Shown: positions 39,001 to 49,400 of the stretch, piece by piece
Position numbering within the stretch: position 1 is the first letter of the stretch
Layout: each line of letters begins with the position of its first letter
Program-made: the position numbers
NCBI GenBank assembly: GCA_000002445.1
Contig: CH464492.1
Coordinates: forward strand, 192,001 to 256,000
Direction of reading: 5' to 3'
Origin: Trypanosoma brucei
Taxonomy: Eukaryota
Length of the DNA: 64,000 nucleotides

Positions 39001-39724
39001 TTACCCACAGTGTTTTCTATGTCAGTTTTAGTTACACCTAGTTCTGTAACCTACGTGAATTTCACTATTTGTTGCATTTACATTTCTTTTCTATGTATTT
39101 CTATTGTTATTTAAGTTGGTATTCATACTATTCCCTTTGTATAAGCTAAAAAGTTTACTCTTTTACTTTTATAAGTGCTTCGTCCATTCGCTTTTGTCAC
39201 AATATTAATATCACTATTGCTCTATAAGTTACTTCTAACATTGTAGCTGCTCCATTTACAAAATAACACTCGTTTATTCTGTATCAACTACGTGGTGTCA
39301 TTGGTTTCTTTTTTTATTCGGCGCTACGCTTTACTGTGCGATACTCTGTCGTTTCACTCTGTATTTTCTTTCTTGTTTTCTGTTATACTATCGCTCTTTC
39401 AGTGGAAAAGATAGTAGCTCCATTTGTCCACTACACTAGACTCTGTCTCTTCCTACTCCATTGTTCAATTAAAAACCTCCTTGTTGTCAACAATGATGTT
39501 TATCGTCATGTTTAAGTTTGAAACTGTGCATATTTCAATCCTTTCTCATTTTTCCACTTTATTTCTCATAATAATAATAATAATAATAATAATAATAGAA
39601 GACTGTTGTGAGTATGTGTGTGTATACGAATATTATAATAAGATAAGTAATAATGATAATAGTTATAATAATAATAGAAAAGTGTTGTGAGTGTGTATAT
39701 ATACGAATATTATAATAAGAGCAG

Positions 39725-39755
<31 letters not shown>

Positions 39756-46400: not shown

Positions 46401-49400
46401 CGATCGTTCCTCTACTATCGAGCACACGAGTCCCGATGAGACCGCAGGTGCTTCATTGTACCCTCTGTGCCTCCATATTCGCAGTGCCAGGCCGACTATT
46501 ACACCACCTTAGAACAATACATGGCATAGGTTGTGGTAGTTGCCGCGTGAAATGGGGGCGAGAAAACGAAGACTCATTGCAAGGAGATGGTAGCGTCCCA
46601 GCAGCGCCAGCCTCTCAGGATACACGGAAGCTGCCGTTTCAATGTGACCTGTGCGAGGCGAGCTTCGGTACACGTTCTCCCCTGTCACTACACAAGAAAT
46701 TCAAACATAAGAGCATAGTGACGGAGGACGGTACCGTGGTGGTGGTGCAATTCCCTCGTAAGCGTGCCCGTGAGGGAAACTTTGACGTCCCGGGGAAAGG
46801 CGAGGTGCAGTGTGGTGTGTGCCAAAAAGTGCTCAGTTGCAGGGACTCCCTCATCCGACACTGTAAGGCTTTCCACAAAGGTGAGGGAGTCGAACTTAAA
46901 TGCAGCAAAAGCACAAAATTGTGTGCCACTGATTCCCCGCATACAAACGCATCCATGTTTGTGTACCAGACATGCGGAAGGCAGTGTGCTAGCAAAACTG
47001 GCCTCACCCTACATCAAAAGAAGATGCACGGTATGAAGGTAGAGCGCGCTGTTACCAGCCAATGTGGCGACTGCGAAGAAACGTCGCTGCACTTGATGAG
47101 CTGTCCCGGTTTGAAGGAGTTACGTGTCAGGTTTGTGGTAGAATGTGTGTGTGTGCAGGATGTATGTTTCTCTAAAAGGCTGGCGCAGTTTCTCATTGCG
47201 GTTGAACGGAGCCGGCCACAGGTGAAGTCCTCCCCTAATGTGTTACTCATACAACTCACTCTCCCTTCTGCAACTTCCCCCCTTATTGCCGAGTGTGGAG
47301 CCAGCAGGAAAAGCACCGGACGCAGGAATAGTCCAGACACCCTCAGAGACAGAGAGGGTATGCAGTCAACAAGCAACAAAAACAGAAACAGAAAGAGGGG
47401 GAGAGAATAATAAACGAATAACAAAAAACAAAACAAAAGGATTGCTAATTGACATCTTCGGGAGAGTCTAGGGTGGGGGGCTTCTCGCCCCATCTGCTGT
47501 ATTCCGTTCAACTGCGGAGCTACAACAAAAAATTATAGAGTGTGTTAGGCTGAATAAAAAAGGTGAGACTCTGCCACAGTCGCCAGACCGATAGCATCTC
47601 AGGGCTCTACGGTGGTGGCTGATGGCCGCGCCAGTGGGGGGAAACTCTCACGAAGGCACGAAATAAATTCTAAAAAAAAGAATGTGGATTTTCTCATTCT
47701 GCCCACACAGGCTTTTACTGTGTGATTAGTCAGGACCATCTCTCTTTTCTTCCTTTACCTGAAACTTAGTAACTGCATTTTTTCTTTCCATCCCGCTGTG
47801 GCCGTTTATGATTATTGCCTTTATAATCTTTTCTATGTTTGTTCTCTCTTTATTTCAGCGTTTTACAGTTCTTATAATTCGTCACTCTCTCTGCATCATA
47901 CTTTATAACAATACACTTGTTCTTTCATATAAATTATTCTCTTTCAATTACTCCAGTTTTACCTTAACAATATTTAACGTGCTTCTATTTCGAACTTGTA
48001 TTTGGTTGTAACCACCAAACTTATCATAAAAGTTTCGATACAGTCACAACACTCTCCTGTTATTATTATTATTATTATTGTCATTATTGTTATTACTCTA
48101 ACTAATGTCTATAACGTAAACAAAATTATAAGTTTTCATAATTTCTCTCATTTTTTATACTCTATTTCTATATTGCTTTACTTCCATGGGTTAAAGTCAA
48201 GTAAATCTCACTAATTTTTAAATTTTTAATTTTTTTTCACATTTTAATCAAAGAATGTAAAAATATTTTAAATTGTCTAAAAAAGCAAATACGTATAGAA
48301 TTGGGAAAAAATGCTTTACAAATAATTCTTAAAAGTGTCATGCTAGAAGAAAAAACACAAGAAAAAGAGGTTTCTTAATTACAACAGAATTTATTCCTGT
48401 GGTGTTTGTCTTCCCATCATTCTCCACTTTAATTCCCTCTTTAAGTTTGCACTTTCCATCTTTGTGTTCGCAATCTTTGTCCTCTGTGCATTTATCTTTT
48501 TCGGTGTCTTCCTTGCATTTTTCTTCTGTTTTAGTATCTGTCTTTGTTTTTTGTGCTCCTGCTGCTACTTTGGAGGCGTGTTCTTTTGCGAAACAAAAAG
48601 CAAGGGTTGTCGCAATTTTGCCAGCGCTGTTGGCTTCCTTTAAGTTTATCTTTGCTATAGTGTTGTCTGCTTTGTAACTGACGTGCTCATTTGCCAACGA
48701 GTCTATTAGGTCTGAAATTAAGGTTGTTTCGCCGCTGGGCAGAAAAGCCTTGACAACTGAAGTTTGCTTGCTTTCCTCTTCGGCACTTTGGTTTCTCGGT
48801 GCTTGAATAGCTGTGCTATTTTTCGGAATGTTCCGTCGGTTTCTAGGTATTTCTTGCTCTTTTGAAGAGGTCGTGCGACTGCCTTTATGTTGATGGTTCG
48901 GTGCCGGCAAAGTAAGGCTGCTAATCTTTTAGTCGTTGTTAGGAGTTTTTTGTCGTCTGTGTTTTCGTCTTCGCAGCCAGCATTTTTGCCAGCTGGCTTA
49001 AATAAGGTTGTTTTCTTCGGGGTGTCGGCTGTCGTGTCCCTCGTCGCTGATACTATTCCGAACGCTTTTGTTAGTTGCCCGACGTTACTGCTCCGATCCG
49101 TCGGGCTTACGGCGCACGCTCCTGGTTTGCCGACCGTCATCGAGCCGGCACTTGCTGCGATGTCGCCTTCCGAGGCTATTTTGAGTTTGTAGGTCGGTGG
49201 GTTGAATCTTGTATCTGGGATAAGCTGTATGTTTTCGATTAAGGGTAGCTCTGTGATCGCTGTGGCTTCTTTGTGGGCTCCCGCCGGCACCTCAGTGTCG
49301 CAGGCGTCGTCGTCTTTTGCAGCGCCCGTTGCTGCTACGTCGCATTGCTCGTCGCTTGCCCTGCTTAAACCAGCCTGCGTCGTTTGCGGGTTTGAGCCGC

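What the first reader, a model, noticed from the sequence alone, without database searches (positions are those of the whole stretch)
39570..48040. Oppositely oriented island at 39570..47680 inside the minus-strand VSG array: a long 70-bp repeat array, then a telomere-repeat relic with no VSG, then an ESAG-like pseudogene and ingi
Elsewhere in this window a single 70-bp unit precedes each VSG, all on the same strand as the VSG. Here a roughly 13-unit array (39570..40520) points the other way. About 430 bp of normal VSG-upstream flank follows it, and then (TTAGGG)2.5 (40951..40967) rather than a VSG. Next comes an ESAG3-like pseudogene, and a full-length ingi occupies the position where a VSG would be expected. 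Long 70-bp arrays directly abutting telomere repeats are features of telomeric expression sites and minichromosomes, not of internal arrays. This may be a fossil of a telomere-proximal segment captured into an internal array by inversion or translocation, or of a break healed by telomerase. Either way it marks divergent (about 38730..39570) and convergent (about 47680..48040) strand-switch points inside a VSG array.
Basis: partly seen in the sequence, partly recalled or inferred. Interest (0 to 1): 0.75.

Follow-up and report, generated by a model that had tools for sequence, protein, structure and literature searches.

The report
VSG-less inverted cassette in trypanosome array
An 8-kb stretch of a Trypanosoma brucei silent surface-antigen gene array lies backwards and holds a 12-unit 70-bp repeat tract, a dead ESAG3 gene and an ingi retroelement but no antigen gene; every component is an ordinary kind for these rearrangement-prone regions, and the short telomere-like 17-mer inside it gives no good evidence of a former chromosome end.

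Summary
A plus-oriented block (39569-47679) sits between minus-oriented VSG cassettes. It holds 12 cores of the 70-bp repeat, a unique roughly 800-bp spacer with a perfect 17-nt GGTTAGGGTTAGGGTTA, an ESAG3 pseudogene and a 5281-bp ingi. It contains no VSG-like coding sequence.

Some details need correcting. The window has three strand switches, not two. A second ESAG3 pseudogene lies head-to-head on the left. The order 70-bp, spacer, ESAG3 pseudogene recurs three more times in the window, twice behind a single co-oriented 70-bp unit, so it is a normal internal cassette. The two switches are sharp points, at the first base of the repeat tract and the last base of the ingi poly(A).

The telomere-fossil reading is weakly supported:
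- The 17-mer has no degenerate hexamer halo.
- It is not at either breakpoint.
- It lies only 427 nt from the array.
- A DIRE in the same window made TTAGGGTTAGGGTTGGGG by hexamer expansion inside a reverse-transcriptase motif.

Best reading: an ordinary subtelomeric rearrangement (inversion or reverse-orientation insertion), in-situ expansion of the 70-bp tract, and an ingi insertion. No other T. brucei assembly could be reached, so the history is inferred. Interest is low.

The parts
36064..37575 (-). B-type VSG (pseudo)gene, the first minus-strand VSG left of the block. It has no 70-bp unit of its own orientation. Context only.
   Evidence: Pfam VSG_B E=4.9e-46 for ORF 36580-37575. tblastn map of VSG-like segments.
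37798..38763 (-). Left ESAG3 pseudogene, head-to-head with the one inside the block.
   Evidence: tblastn with ESAG3 protein P0001, four collinear pieces at 46-75% identity, E=3e-119. Inverted-repeat arms I1-I4 at 78-83% with 41416-42212. About 71% identical to the right copy over about 1.05 kb, no closer than to the other copies.
38764..39568 (-). 804-bp spacer of minus polarity upstream of the left ESAG3 pseudogene. It ends abruptly at the first base of the plus-oriented 70-bp tract, which is the divergent switch point.
   Evidence: GC skew runs from -0.18 to -0.30 up to 39599, then +0.79 from 39600. Only the roughly 70-180 bp next to the ESAG3 pseudogene is homologous to the other ESAG3 pseudogene upstream regions. 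No minus-oriented 70-bp core is present.
39569..40523 (+). 70-bp repeat tract: (TAA)10 leader, 11 complete units of 77-92 bp and a terminal partial core. It is homogenised in a higher-order 169-bp pattern.
   Evidence: 12 cores, all +. Tandem Repeats Finder periods 77, 169 and 246. Units 2, 6 and 10 are identical; 169-bp dimers are 94.7-98.2% identical; single units elsewhere are at most 72% identical to any array unit.
40524..41315 (+). Non-coding spacer between the tract and the ESAG3 pseudogene. 40524-41140 is unique in the window. 41141-41318 is homologous to the upstream region of the left ESAG3 pseudogene.
   Evidence: No blastn hit in the window. No similarity to 11 other post-70-bp flanks. 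Local alignment to the left spacer covers only the proximal 180 bp. No ORF of note.
40677..40690 (+). Second, imperfect telomere-like 14-mer TAGGGTTGGGGTTA.
   Evidence: Alignment of the spacer to (TTAGGG)n scores 23 against a shuffle maximum of 22, which is marginal. The 12-mer GGGTTGGGGTTA occurs once in the window.
40951..40967 (+). Perfect interstitial telomere-like 17-mer GGTTAGGGTTAGGGTTA (2.8 repeats), sharply bounded.
   Evidence: No degenerate hexamer extension on either side.
41316..42312 (+). Right ESAG3 pseudogene, roughly full length, with in-frame stops and frameshifts.
   Evidence: the search for homologous proteins E=1.2e-93, 58% identity, 100% of the query covered, to a 368-aa ESAG3. 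Cluster members are named ESAG3. tblastn places it at 41403-42247. Three-frame translations show the stops and frame changes.
42399..47679 (+). Full-length ingi retroelement (5281 bp) with a disrupted ORF, inserted 86 bp after the ESAG3 pseudogene. Its poly(A) end is the convergent switch point.
   Evidence: Pfam RVT_1 1.1e-44, Exo_endo_phos_2 2.4e-11, zinc finger in the second ORF. The 5' end CCCATTGGCGCC...CCACCTCAACGTGGTGCCAGGG and the poly(A) at 47672-47679 were read directly. The target-site duplication is only weakly detectable: AAACGTG--TTT against GAATGTGGATTT, p about 0.05.
47680..48038 (-). 359-bp remnant of a minus-oriented post-70-bp spacer. It is truncated: other 70-bp-to-VSG distances in the window are 1.0-1.7 kb.
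   Evidence: AT skew -0.44 and GC skew -0.31 begin immediately after 47680. 47944-47990 matches the flank just downstream of the + unit at 17338, in inverted orientation.
48039..48103 (-). Single minus-oriented 70-bp unit whose downstream VSG is missing.
   Evidence: Core hit at 48039-48052 (-) with 2 mismatches. Inverted-repeat pairs I12-I14 with array units, 80%.

Best explanation
The block 39569-47679 is an ordinary internal cassette of a Trypanosoma brucei silent VSG array: 70-bp repeat, variable spacer, ESAG3 pseudogene. It has ended up in the opposite orientation to its neighbours and has no VSG.

Three processes typical of these non-transcribed, recombination-prone subtelomeres account for it.
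1. **A DNA rearrangement.** This was either an inversion of the block or insertion of the block in reverse orientation into the spacer of a minus-strand 70-bp/ESAG3-pseudogene/VSG cassette. It put a plus-oriented cassette next to minus-oriented ones. Its two polarity breakpoints fall at the outer edge of the (TAA)n-rich 70-bp tract and at or near the ingi.
2. **In-situ expansion.** The 70-bp tract grew from one or a few units to 12 by unequal exchange or replication slippage. That left identical 92-bp units and near-identical 169-bp dimers.
3. **An ingi insertion.** The ingi retrotransposed 86 bp downstream of the ESAG3 pseudogene, at or next to the convergent joint.

The (TTAGGG)2.8 tract is a short interstitial telomere-like sequence inside the variable spacer. 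It most likely arose locally by hexamer slippage from a chance TTAGGG-like seed, or as a very short templated insertion. It is unlikely to be the remnant of a long telomere.

The anatomy, orientation, homogenisation and absence of a VSG are shown directly. The order and nature of the rearrangements and the origin of the 17-mer are inferred. No function is implied; the block is a structural scar in a silent archive. A VSG-less 0.95-kb 70-bp tract could still act as a recombination substrate.
For: **Architecture.**
- ESAG3 pseudogenes occur at 10704-11644 (+), 37798-38763 (-), 41403-42247 (+) and 60176-61146 (-).
- Each lies 700-950 bp from a 70-bp repeat. All except the block's own copy are followed by a co-oriented VSG about 230 bp to about 780 bp further on.
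- All four distal spacers are mutually unrelated. Only the proximal 70-180 bp is shared. The unique spacer that carries the 17-mer is therefore normal for this cassette type.

**Polarity.**
- GC and AT skew flip within one 200-bp window at 39568/39569 and at 47679/47680.
- Skew is continuous across 40951-40967.

**In-situ expansion.** Units 2, 6 and 10 are identical, and the 169-bp dimers are 95-98% identical.

**ingi.** It is full length with RT and endonuclease domains and a poly(A). The only target-site-duplication scenario with any support is the ingi as a simple insertion (p about 0.05, against 0.37 for the whole-block and inversion scenarios).

**Left and right ESAG3 pseudogenes.** They are no closer to each other (71%) than to the other copies (69-75%). 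There is therefore no recent local palindromic duplication.

**Origin of the 17-mer.**
- It has no degenerate halo.
- Same-window control: the DIRE RT motif reads GSVLGLGLGP where the ingi reads GTVLGP. That is a 12-nt hexamer expansion giving TTAGGGTTAGGGTTGGGG.

**Literature.**
- ingi and RIME recombine and cause rearrangements (PMC2854126).
- Subtelomeric arrays are heterozygous and non-transcribed, and the comparison figures mark inverted matches between homologues and isolates (PMC6784898).
- 70-bp repeats contain unstable (TAA)n (PMC3467770).
- Tracts next to silent array VSGs are normally short (PMC4858185; PMC12975129).
Against: - No orthologous locus from another strain or assembly could be obtained. 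Neither the pre-rearrangement state nor the direction of change is observed.
- Neither inversion nor insertion leaves a detectable signature. There is no duplication flanking the block and no second ingi at the left boundary.
- A 12-unit tract with no VSG is atypical for internal arrays. All other tracts in this window have 1-2 units. That is what a telomeric origin would predict.
- A perfect 17-nt telomere repeat is very unlikely by chance under a simple base-composition model (about 3e-5 per window by my own estimate), so the slippage origin remains an inference.
- The ingi target-site duplication is only borderline (p about 0.05-0.08).
Confidence: 0.6

Rival explanations
1. Fossil chromosome end. 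The block is the telomere-proximal part of a former expression site or minichromosome end, consisting of a long 70-bp tract followed by ESAG3 pseudogene, ingi, VSG and telomere. It was captured internally by translocation or inversion, and the 17-mer is what remains of the telomere or of telomerase healing.
For: - The tract length of 0.95 kb falls within the BES range of 0.2-7.1 kb.
- BES7 and BES15 carry an ESAG3 pseudogene, and BES2 an ingi, 3' of the 70-bp repeats (PMC2567434).
- All other tracts in the window have 1-2 units.
- The TTAGGG strand has the polarity expected if the end lay to the right.
- A second telomere-like 14-mer lies 260 bp upstream.
- The 17-mer is absent from the other eleven post-70-bp flanks.
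Against: - The 17-mer sits between the 70-bp tract and the ESAG3 pseudogene, 427 nt from the tract. There is no VSG or VSG 3'-UTR remnant before it.
- A coherent co-oriented cassette continues after it, with the spacing typical of the cassette.
- It is sharply bounded with no degenerate hexamers.
- It is not at a polarity breakpoint.
- Hexamer slippage is demonstrated in the DIRE.
- At real chromosome ends the 70-bp repeats and the telomere are separated by a VSG and 2-8 kb.
Confidence: 0.13
2. Short telomerase- or template-mediated insertion during repair of an internal double-strand break. A break in the spacer was repaired with the addition of 2-3 TTAGGG repeats, as described for short interstitial telomeric sequences in vertebrates (from my own knowledge, not checked in a paper here). 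It is unrelated to the inversion of the block.
For: - The tract is perfect and sharply bounded with no halo.
- It lies in a fragile neighbourhood next to a (TAA)n-rich tract (PMC3467770).
- The 12-mer with up to 1 mismatch is rare in the window: 3 hits at two loci against 0.16 expected.
Against: There is no empty-site allele to compare with, and no flanking microhomology can be evaluated. Slippage from an 11-nt seed explains the tract equally well. I estimate about 0.17 such seeds per window, and the DIRE shows the process.
Confidence: 0.12
3. Assembly artefact. The reversed block results from a mis-join or mis-orientation of contigs at multicopy repeats, namely the 70-bp tract on one side and a 5.3-kb ingi on the other.
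For: - Both boundaries coincide with high-copy repeats.
- Published assemblies of these arrays needed manual re-orientation of contigs (PMC6784898).
- No detectable duplication or other signature is present at the junctions.
Against: - The left junction is between unique sequence and the outer edge of the tract, not inside a repeat shared in both orientations.
- A minus-oriented 70-bp unit that could have mediated a mis-join is absent.
- The window contains a second, analogous convergent joint at a DIRE, at about 20.2 kb. Such joints therefore look like a feature of the region.
- The weak ingi target-site duplication suggests that its two flanks were adjacent before insertion.
Confidence: 0.08
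4. Retrotransposition with 5' transduction. A read-through RNA starting at the 70-bp tract and ending at the ingi poly(A) was reverse-transcribed into a minus-strand spacer, inserting the whole 8.1-kb block at once.
For: - The whole block is co-oriented and ends exactly at the ingi poly(A).
- Removing it would join 359 and 804 bp into a 1163-bp spacer in front of the left ESAG3 pseudogene. That is a plausible canonical cassette, given the other spacers of 704-953 bp.
Against: - No target-site duplication flanks the block (p about 0.37-0.5).
- The 5' Pr77 hallmark of ingi-clade elements encodes an HDV-like ribozyme that cleaves co-transcripts just upstream of the element (PMC4035085). This should prevent 5' transduction.
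- The only weak duplication signal is for the ingi alone.
Confidence: 0.02

Closest known systems
Silent subtelomeric VSG array cassettes of T. brucei (70-bp repeat, spacer, VSG, interspersed with ESAG3 pseudogenes and ingi/DIRE elements)
   Same: - Same building blocks, in the same order as two other cassettes in this window: 70-bp, a 700-950 bp spacer, then an ESAG3 pseudogene.
- Non-coding, AT-rich spacers that are not conserved between copies.
   Different: - Twelve repeat units instead of 1-2.
- No VSG follows.
- Orientation is opposite to both neighbours.
Telomere-proximal part of bloodstream expression sites, especially Lister 427 BES7 and BES15 (ESAG3 pseudogene 3' of the 70-bp repeats) and BES2 (ingi 3' of the 70-bp repeats); PMC2567434
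   Same: - A long 70-bp tract (0.95 kb, within the 0.2-7.1 kb range).
- It is followed by an ESAG3 pseudogene and an ingi in the same orientation.
   Different: - No VSG and no long telomere tract.
- The only TTAGGG sequence is 17 nt long and lies upstream of the ESAG3 pseudogene.
- VSG cassettes flank the block on both sides.
- No other ESAGs, no 50-bp repeats and no promoter were identified.
Short interstitial telomeric sequences as described in other eukaryotes (from my own knowledge)
   Same: A few perfect hexamers, sharply bounded, embedded in unique sequence.
   Different: The insertion mechanism is not demonstrable here. A slippage origin is shown for a similar tract in the DIRE of the same window.
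Retroelement-associated rearrangement joints in T. brucei (ingi and RIME recombine and cause indels and rearrangements; PMC2854126)
   Same: An ingi-clade element sits exactly at a convergent polarity joint. The same holds for the DIRE at about 20.2 kb.
   Different: There is no partner element at the other breakpoint. A weak target-site duplication suggests the ingi may simply have inserted at a pre-existing joint.

Membership tests
T. brucei 70-bp repeat | Units of about 75-77 bp (variable) made of a (TAA/TRR)n tract plus a GT-rich core, arranged head to tail | tested here: met
   12 cores matching GTGTTGTGAGTGTG with 0-2 mismatches. Unit lengths are 77-92 bp, each with a TAA-rich tract. The description of the consensus comes from PMC4858185.
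T. brucei 70-bp repeat | Lies upstream of, and co-oriented with, a VSG (typically about 1-1.7 kb away) | tested here: not met
   No VSG-like coding sequence anywhere in 38701-42400 or 47680-48100. An ESAG3 pseudogene and an ingi follow instead.
ESAG3 | Sequence homology along the full length of the roughly 368-aa ESAG3 protein | tested here: met
   E=1.2e-93, 58% identity, 100% of the query covered. The hit's cluster members are named ESAG3. tblastn covers residues 31-345.
ESAG3 | Intact open reading frame | tested here: not met
   Several in-frame stops and at least two frame changes. It is a pseudogene.
ingi (L1Tc/ingi-clade non-LTR retrotransposon) | About 5.2 kb long, encoding an AP-endonuclease and a reverse transcriptase, with a 3' poly(A) | tested here: met
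   5281 bp. Exo_endo_phos_2 2.4e-11 and RVT_1 1.1e-44. A run of eight A at 47672-47679.
ingi (L1Tc/ingi-clade non-LTR retrotransposon) | Pr77 hallmark at the 5' end | tested here: inconclusive
   The 5' end reads ...CCACCTCAACGTGGTGCCAGGGTCCAGTACCCCGTATCATCGG.... This matches the hallmark as I recall it, but no reference sequence was available to align, and there was no Rfam hit.
ingi (L1Tc/ingi-clade non-LTR retrotransposon) | Flanking target-site duplication (about 12 bp) | tested here: inconclusive
   Best ungapped match 8 of 11 (p about 0.08). Best gapped match AAACGTG--TTT against GAATGTGGATTT (p about 0.05).
Telomere remnant or healed chromosome end | Tandem TTAGGG repeats | tested here: met
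   A perfect 17 nt, 2.8 repeats.
Telomere remnant or healed chromosome end | Degenerate hexamer repeats around the core, as expected from decay of a long tract | tested here: not met
   In-phase identity in the flanks is at background level, and there is no gapped match to (TTAGGG)n within 200 nt on either side.
Telomere remnant or healed chromosome end | The tract marks a junction between unrelated or differently oriented segments | tested here: not met
   Skew is continuous across 40951-40967. The breakpoints are at 39568/39569 and 47679/47680. Spacing to the ESAG3 pseudogene is typical of the cassette.
Telomere remnant or healed chromosome end | The orthologous locus in another strain is terminal or lacks the distal sequence | not testable with these tools
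   No T. brucei genome is reachable. Six exact-protein look-ups found nothing, and the metagenome scan returned only an unrelated contig.
Bloodstream expression site (telomere-proximal part) | 70-bp tract, then VSG, then 0.2-1.6 kb, then a long telomere tract | tested here: not met
   No VSG. Only 17 nt of TTAGGG, located 427 nt after the tract. Reference values are from PMC2567434.
Strand-switch point within a VSG array | Abrupt reversal of cassette orientation and of strand composition | tested here: met
   The orientation of the 70-bp cores, ESAG3 pseudogenes and VSGs reverses, and GC and AT skew flip at 39568/39569 and 47679/47680.

The most novel reading that the evidence does not exclude
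The block is a fossil of a former expression-site-like or minichromosome-like chromosome end, with a long 70-bp tract followed by an ESAG3 pseudogene and an ingi, as in Lister 427 BES7 and BES2. It was internalised into a silent array. The (TTAGGG)2.8 tract and the nearby TAGGGTTGGGGTTA would then be traces of telomerase action at a break that removed the VSG. If so, it would document traffic of material from telomeric sites back into the internal archive.
Probability: 0.12. Interest if true: 0.45.

Novelty: new member of a known kind. Interest (0 to 1): 0.2.

Why it matters
It matters little for mechanism. Every component (70-bp repeats, ESAG3 pseudogenes, ingi, orientation blocks) is a known ingredient of T. 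brucei subtelomeres, and the arrays are silent.

Three modest points are worth keeping.
- ESAG3 pseudogenes sit between the 70-bp repeat and the VSG in several internal cassettes. This offers a simple source for expression sites that carry an ESAG3 pseudogene 3' of their 70-bp repeats, such as BES7 and BES15. This is my inference.
- A VSG-less, homogenised 0.95-kb 70-bp tract inside an array is a potential ectopic recombination partner for expression-site 70-bp repeats.
- Both convergent orientation joints in this window coincide with the 3' end of an ingi-clade element. A genome-wide census could test whether that is a rule.

If the telomere-fossil reading were true, it would show transfer from chromosome ends into the internal archive.

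Tried and rejected
- **Cross-assembly comparison.** The look-up of encoding contigs with four window proteins (VSGs 48718-49821, 36580-37575 and 51641-53113, and the ingi ORF 46106-47410) and two database proteins (P0001, P0002) returned nothing. 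The VSG homology search identified the species only: 97% identity to T. brucei A0A1V0FYS7, with no contigs attached.
- **Metagenome scan.** The 17-mer with its flanks returned one unrelated 2.3-kb contig that shares only 27 nt. I treat this as coincidence.
- **Local inverted duplication of ESAG3.** Rejected. The left and right copies are 71% identical, no closer than to the other copies.
- **Target-site duplication around the whole block, or one that fits a simple inversion of the block.** Not found.
- **5' transduction by the ingi.** Rejected as unlikely. There is no flanking duplication, and ingi-clade 5' ends encode a self-cleaving ribozyme (PMC4035085).
- **Homology of the post-array flank to other VSG-upstream flanks.** None found.
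- **Hidden coding content in the two spacers.** None.
- **VSG 3'-UTR 16-mer near the 17-mer.** Absent.
- **Rfam scan of the window.** No family reached its threshold.
- **Telomere-like tract at 23718-23735.** It turned out to lie inside a DIRE reverse-transcriptase motif and is not telomere-derived.
- **Published count of 70-bp units per array VSG.** Not found. PMC1950903 is not held, and the other papers say only 'shorter tracts'.

Full report
**What the window is.** Pfam assigns A- and B-type VSG domains and VSG C-terminal domains to the long ORFs. One intact 490-aa VSG (51641-53113, minus strand) is 97% identical to a Trypanosoma brucei VSG in UniProt. The window is therefore a T. brucei-type silent subtelomeric VSG array.

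Three independent markers give the same orientation map:
- the 70-bp repeat core GTGTTGTGAGTGTG (25 hits against 0.5 expected);
- tblastn mapping of VSG-like segments;
- base skew.

The map is plus for 1-20.2 kb, minus for 20.2-39.57 kb, plus for 39.57-47.68 kb, and minus for 47.68-64 kb. The 'island' is thus one of several orientation blocks, not a lone exception in a uniformly minus-strand array.

**Checking the observation.** The repeat tract is real and plus-oriented. Twelve cores lie between 39603 and 40523, all on the plus strand. They make up eleven complete units of 77-92 bp plus a terminal partial core, preceded by (TAA)10.

- The tract is homogenised. Units 2, 6 and 10 are identical, and three 169-bp dimers are 94.7-98.2% identical. 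The single units elsewhere in the window are at most 72% identical to any array unit.
- GGTTAGGGTTAGGGTTA at 40951-40967 is perfect.
- The ESAG3-like pseudogene is confirmed. A stop-free conceptual translation hits a 368-aa protein at E=1.2e-93 with 58% identity. That protein's 90% cluster consists of proteins named ESAG3 from Lister 427 expression-site clones and from T. b. gambiense. The three-frame translations show in-frame stops and frame changes.
- The ingi spans 42399-47679 (5281 bp). It has endonuclease and reverse-transcriptase domains, ends in a poly(A), and its ORF is broken into 1071 and 434 aa.
- No VSG-like coding sequence exists in the block or its immediate flanks.

1. A second ESAG3 pseudogene lies at 37798-38763 on the minus strand, head-to-head with the one in the block.
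2. Two further ESAG3 pseudogenes lie at 10704-11644 (+) and 60176-61146 (-). Each follows a single co-oriented 70-bp unit and precedes a co-oriented VSG.
3. The distances from the 70-bp repeat to the ESAG3 pseudogene are 953, 704, 880 (inside the block) and 804 bp (the left copy, measured to the edge of the reversed tract).
4. The order '70-bp, spacer, ESAG3 pseudogene' is therefore a recurrent internal cassette in this window.
5. The four spacers share only the 70-180 bp next to the ESAG3 pseudogene, and their distal parts are mutually unrelated. The uniqueness of 40524-41140 is therefore normal for this cassette. It also means that the phrase 'normal VSG-upstream flank' cannot be substantiated.
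6. The four ESAG3 pseudogene copies are all 69-75% identical to one another. The head-to-head pair is therefore not a recent local inverted duplication.

**Where the strand switches are.** In 200-bp windows the GC skew goes from -0.30 (39400-39599) to +0.79 (39600-39799). At the other side, GC and AT skew go from +0.11 and +0.17 (47500-47699) to -0.31 and -0.44 (47700-47899).

- The divergent switch is a point at the first base of the 70-bp tract (39568/39569).
- The convergent switch is a point at the last base of the ingi poly(A) (47679/47680).
- To the right of the ingi, 359 bp of minus-polarity spacer lead to a single minus-oriented 70-bp unit at 48039-48103. Its VSG is missing.
- That spacer is truncated relative to the 1.0-1.7 kb seen elsewhere.

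**The telomere-like tract.** Five observations bear on whether it is a relic of a chromosome end.
- It is sharply bounded. In-phase identity of the flanks to TTAGGG is 0.17-0.38 against a background of 0.25, and neither 200-nt flank aligns to (TTAGGG)n better than shuffles. Neutral decay of a long tract would not leave 17 perfect bases with nothing around them.
- It is not at either polarity breakpoint, and skew is continuous across it.
- It lies 427 nt after the tract with no VSG or VSG 3'-UTR 16-mer in between. At real ends the order is 70-bp tract, VSG, 200-1590 nt, telomere (PMC2567434), and the 70-bp repeats are 2-8 kb from the terminal repeats (PMC12975129). The premise that the two 'directly abut' at chromosome ends is therefore not accurate.
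- The only other TTAGGGTTAGGG in the window (23718-23735, minus strand) lies inside a degenerate ingi-related element (DIRE, about 20.2-25.85 kb). There the reverse-transcriptase motif reads GSVLGLGLGP, where the intact-type ingi reads GTVLGP. That is a 12-nt hexamer expansion of TTA-GGG codons. This is a direct same-window example of a telomere-like tract arising without a telomere.
- In favour of something non-random, the 17-mer is absent from all other post-70-bp flanks. A second imperfect telomere-like 14-mer, TAGGGTTGGGGTTA, lies at 40677-40690, although its score only just exceeds the shuffles.

**How the block arose.** Three junction scenarios were tested for a target-site duplication.
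- The ingi alone gives a weak gapped match, AAACGTG--TTT against GAATGTGGATTT (p about 0.05). The ungapped test gives 8 of 11 (p about 0.08).
- A duplication flanking the whole block is not supported (p about 0.37-0.5).
- A duplication fitting an ingi that pre-dated a simple inversion of the block is not supported (p about 0.37).

The weak signal favours an ingi that simply inserted 86 bp after the ESAG3 pseudogene, at or beside a convergent joint that already existed.

Two pre-states are equally tidy.
- Un-inverting 39569-47679 would make the whole 26-64 kb region co-oriented.
- Deleting it would join 359 and 804 bp into a 1163-bp spacer, recreating a canonical minus-strand cassette of 70-bp, spacer, ESAG3 pseudogene and VSG.

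I cannot choose between them without an outgroup.

A retrotransposition event carrying the upstream sequence (5' transduction) is unlikely. There is no flanking duplication, and ingi-clade 5' ends encode an HDV-like ribozyme that cuts co-transcripts just upstream of the element (PMC4035085).

An assembly artefact cannot be excluded, because both boundaries are at multicopy repeats. It is not favoured, for two reasons. The left junction is at the outer edge of the tract rather than inside a shared repeat. A second convergent joint with the same anatomy exists at about 20.2 kb, where a plus-strand VSG 3' UTR meets the 3' end of the minus-strand DIRE.

**Comparison with what is known.**
- 70-bp repeats form long tracts in expression sites and short tracts next to array and minichromosomal VSGs (PMC4858185; PMC12975129).
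- They contain an unstable (TAA)n motif (PMC3467770).
- Expression sites with an ESAG3 pseudogene (BES7, BES15) or an ingi (BES2) 3' of the 70-bp repeats have been described (PMC2567434).
- ingi and RIME elements recombine and cause rearrangements (PMC2854126).
- Subtelomeric arrays are heterozygous, non-transcribed and differ between isolates, and the published comparison figures mark inverted matches separately (PMC6784898).

Against this background the block is a new example of known kinds of feature. Its least ordinary aspects are the 12-unit tract with no VSG and the perfect 17-nt telomere-like tract.

**Limits.** No other T. brucei genome sequence could be reached with the available tools. 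I found no published count of 70-bp units per array VSG in the accessible library. The statement that 12 units is atypical rests on this window (1-2 units elsewhere) and on the qualitative 'shorter tracts' in the papers cited.

**Verdict.** Interest is low (0.2).

Noticed in passing
window 20190-25852 (-): A degenerate ingi-related element (DIRE; 31-38% amino-acid identity to the ingi ORFs) lies exactly between two converging VSG 3' ends. These are the plus-strand VSG at 19048-20023 and the minus-strand VSG at 25899-27021, whose 3'-UTR 16-mer is at 25875-25890. Both convergent orientation joints in the window therefore coincide with the 3' end of an ingi-clade element.
   Followed up: partly
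window 23718-23735 (-): TTAGGGTTAGGGTTGGGG lies inside the DIRE reverse-transcriptase motif, which reads GSVLGLGLGP where the ingi reads GTVLGP. A 12-nt hexamer expansion made a telomere-like tract with no telomere involved.
   Followed up: yes
window 9737-13471 (+) and 58380-61864 (-): Two further cassettes run 70-bp unit, 700-950 bp spacer, ESAG3 pseudogene, VSG. Copying such a cassette into an expression site could explain sites that carry an ESAG3 pseudogene 3' of their 70-bp repeats (my inference).
   Followed up: partly
window 54700-54708 (-): The 9-mer GGGTTAGGG lies about 60 nt downstream of a VSG 3'-UTR 16-mer (54768-54783) and just upstream of the next 70-bp unit (54582-54595). That is the position where a telomere would start after a telomeric VSG. 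A 9-mer is at chance level.
   Followed up: no
window 40677-40690 (+): A second imperfect telomere-like 14-mer, TAGGGTTGGGGTTA, lies 260 bp upstream of the perfect 17-mer in the same orientation. Its score is only marginally above shuffles.
   Followed up: partly
L001 2228-2254 (metagenome contig MDSQ01093084.1) against window 40944-40970: A 27-nt exact match, made of the 17-mer plus 10 flanking bases, to an otherwise unrelated 2.3-kb contig. I treat it as coincidence in a very large collection.
   Followed up: yes
window 36064-37575 (-), 48341-49821 (-) and 54833-56176 (-): Three VSG (pseudo)genes lack a recognisable co-oriented 70-bp core upstream at up to 2 mismatches. The third has only a degenerate TATCAT-rich tract at 57269-57320. 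The rule of a single unit before each VSG is therefore not universal in this window.
   Followed up: no
window 51641-53113 (-): An intact 490-aa A-type VSG is 97% identical to UniProt A0A1V0FYS7 (T. brucei). It is only 78-79% identical to its nearest Lister 427 and EATRO1125 VSGs, which suggests the window comes from a different strain from those two.
   Followed up: no
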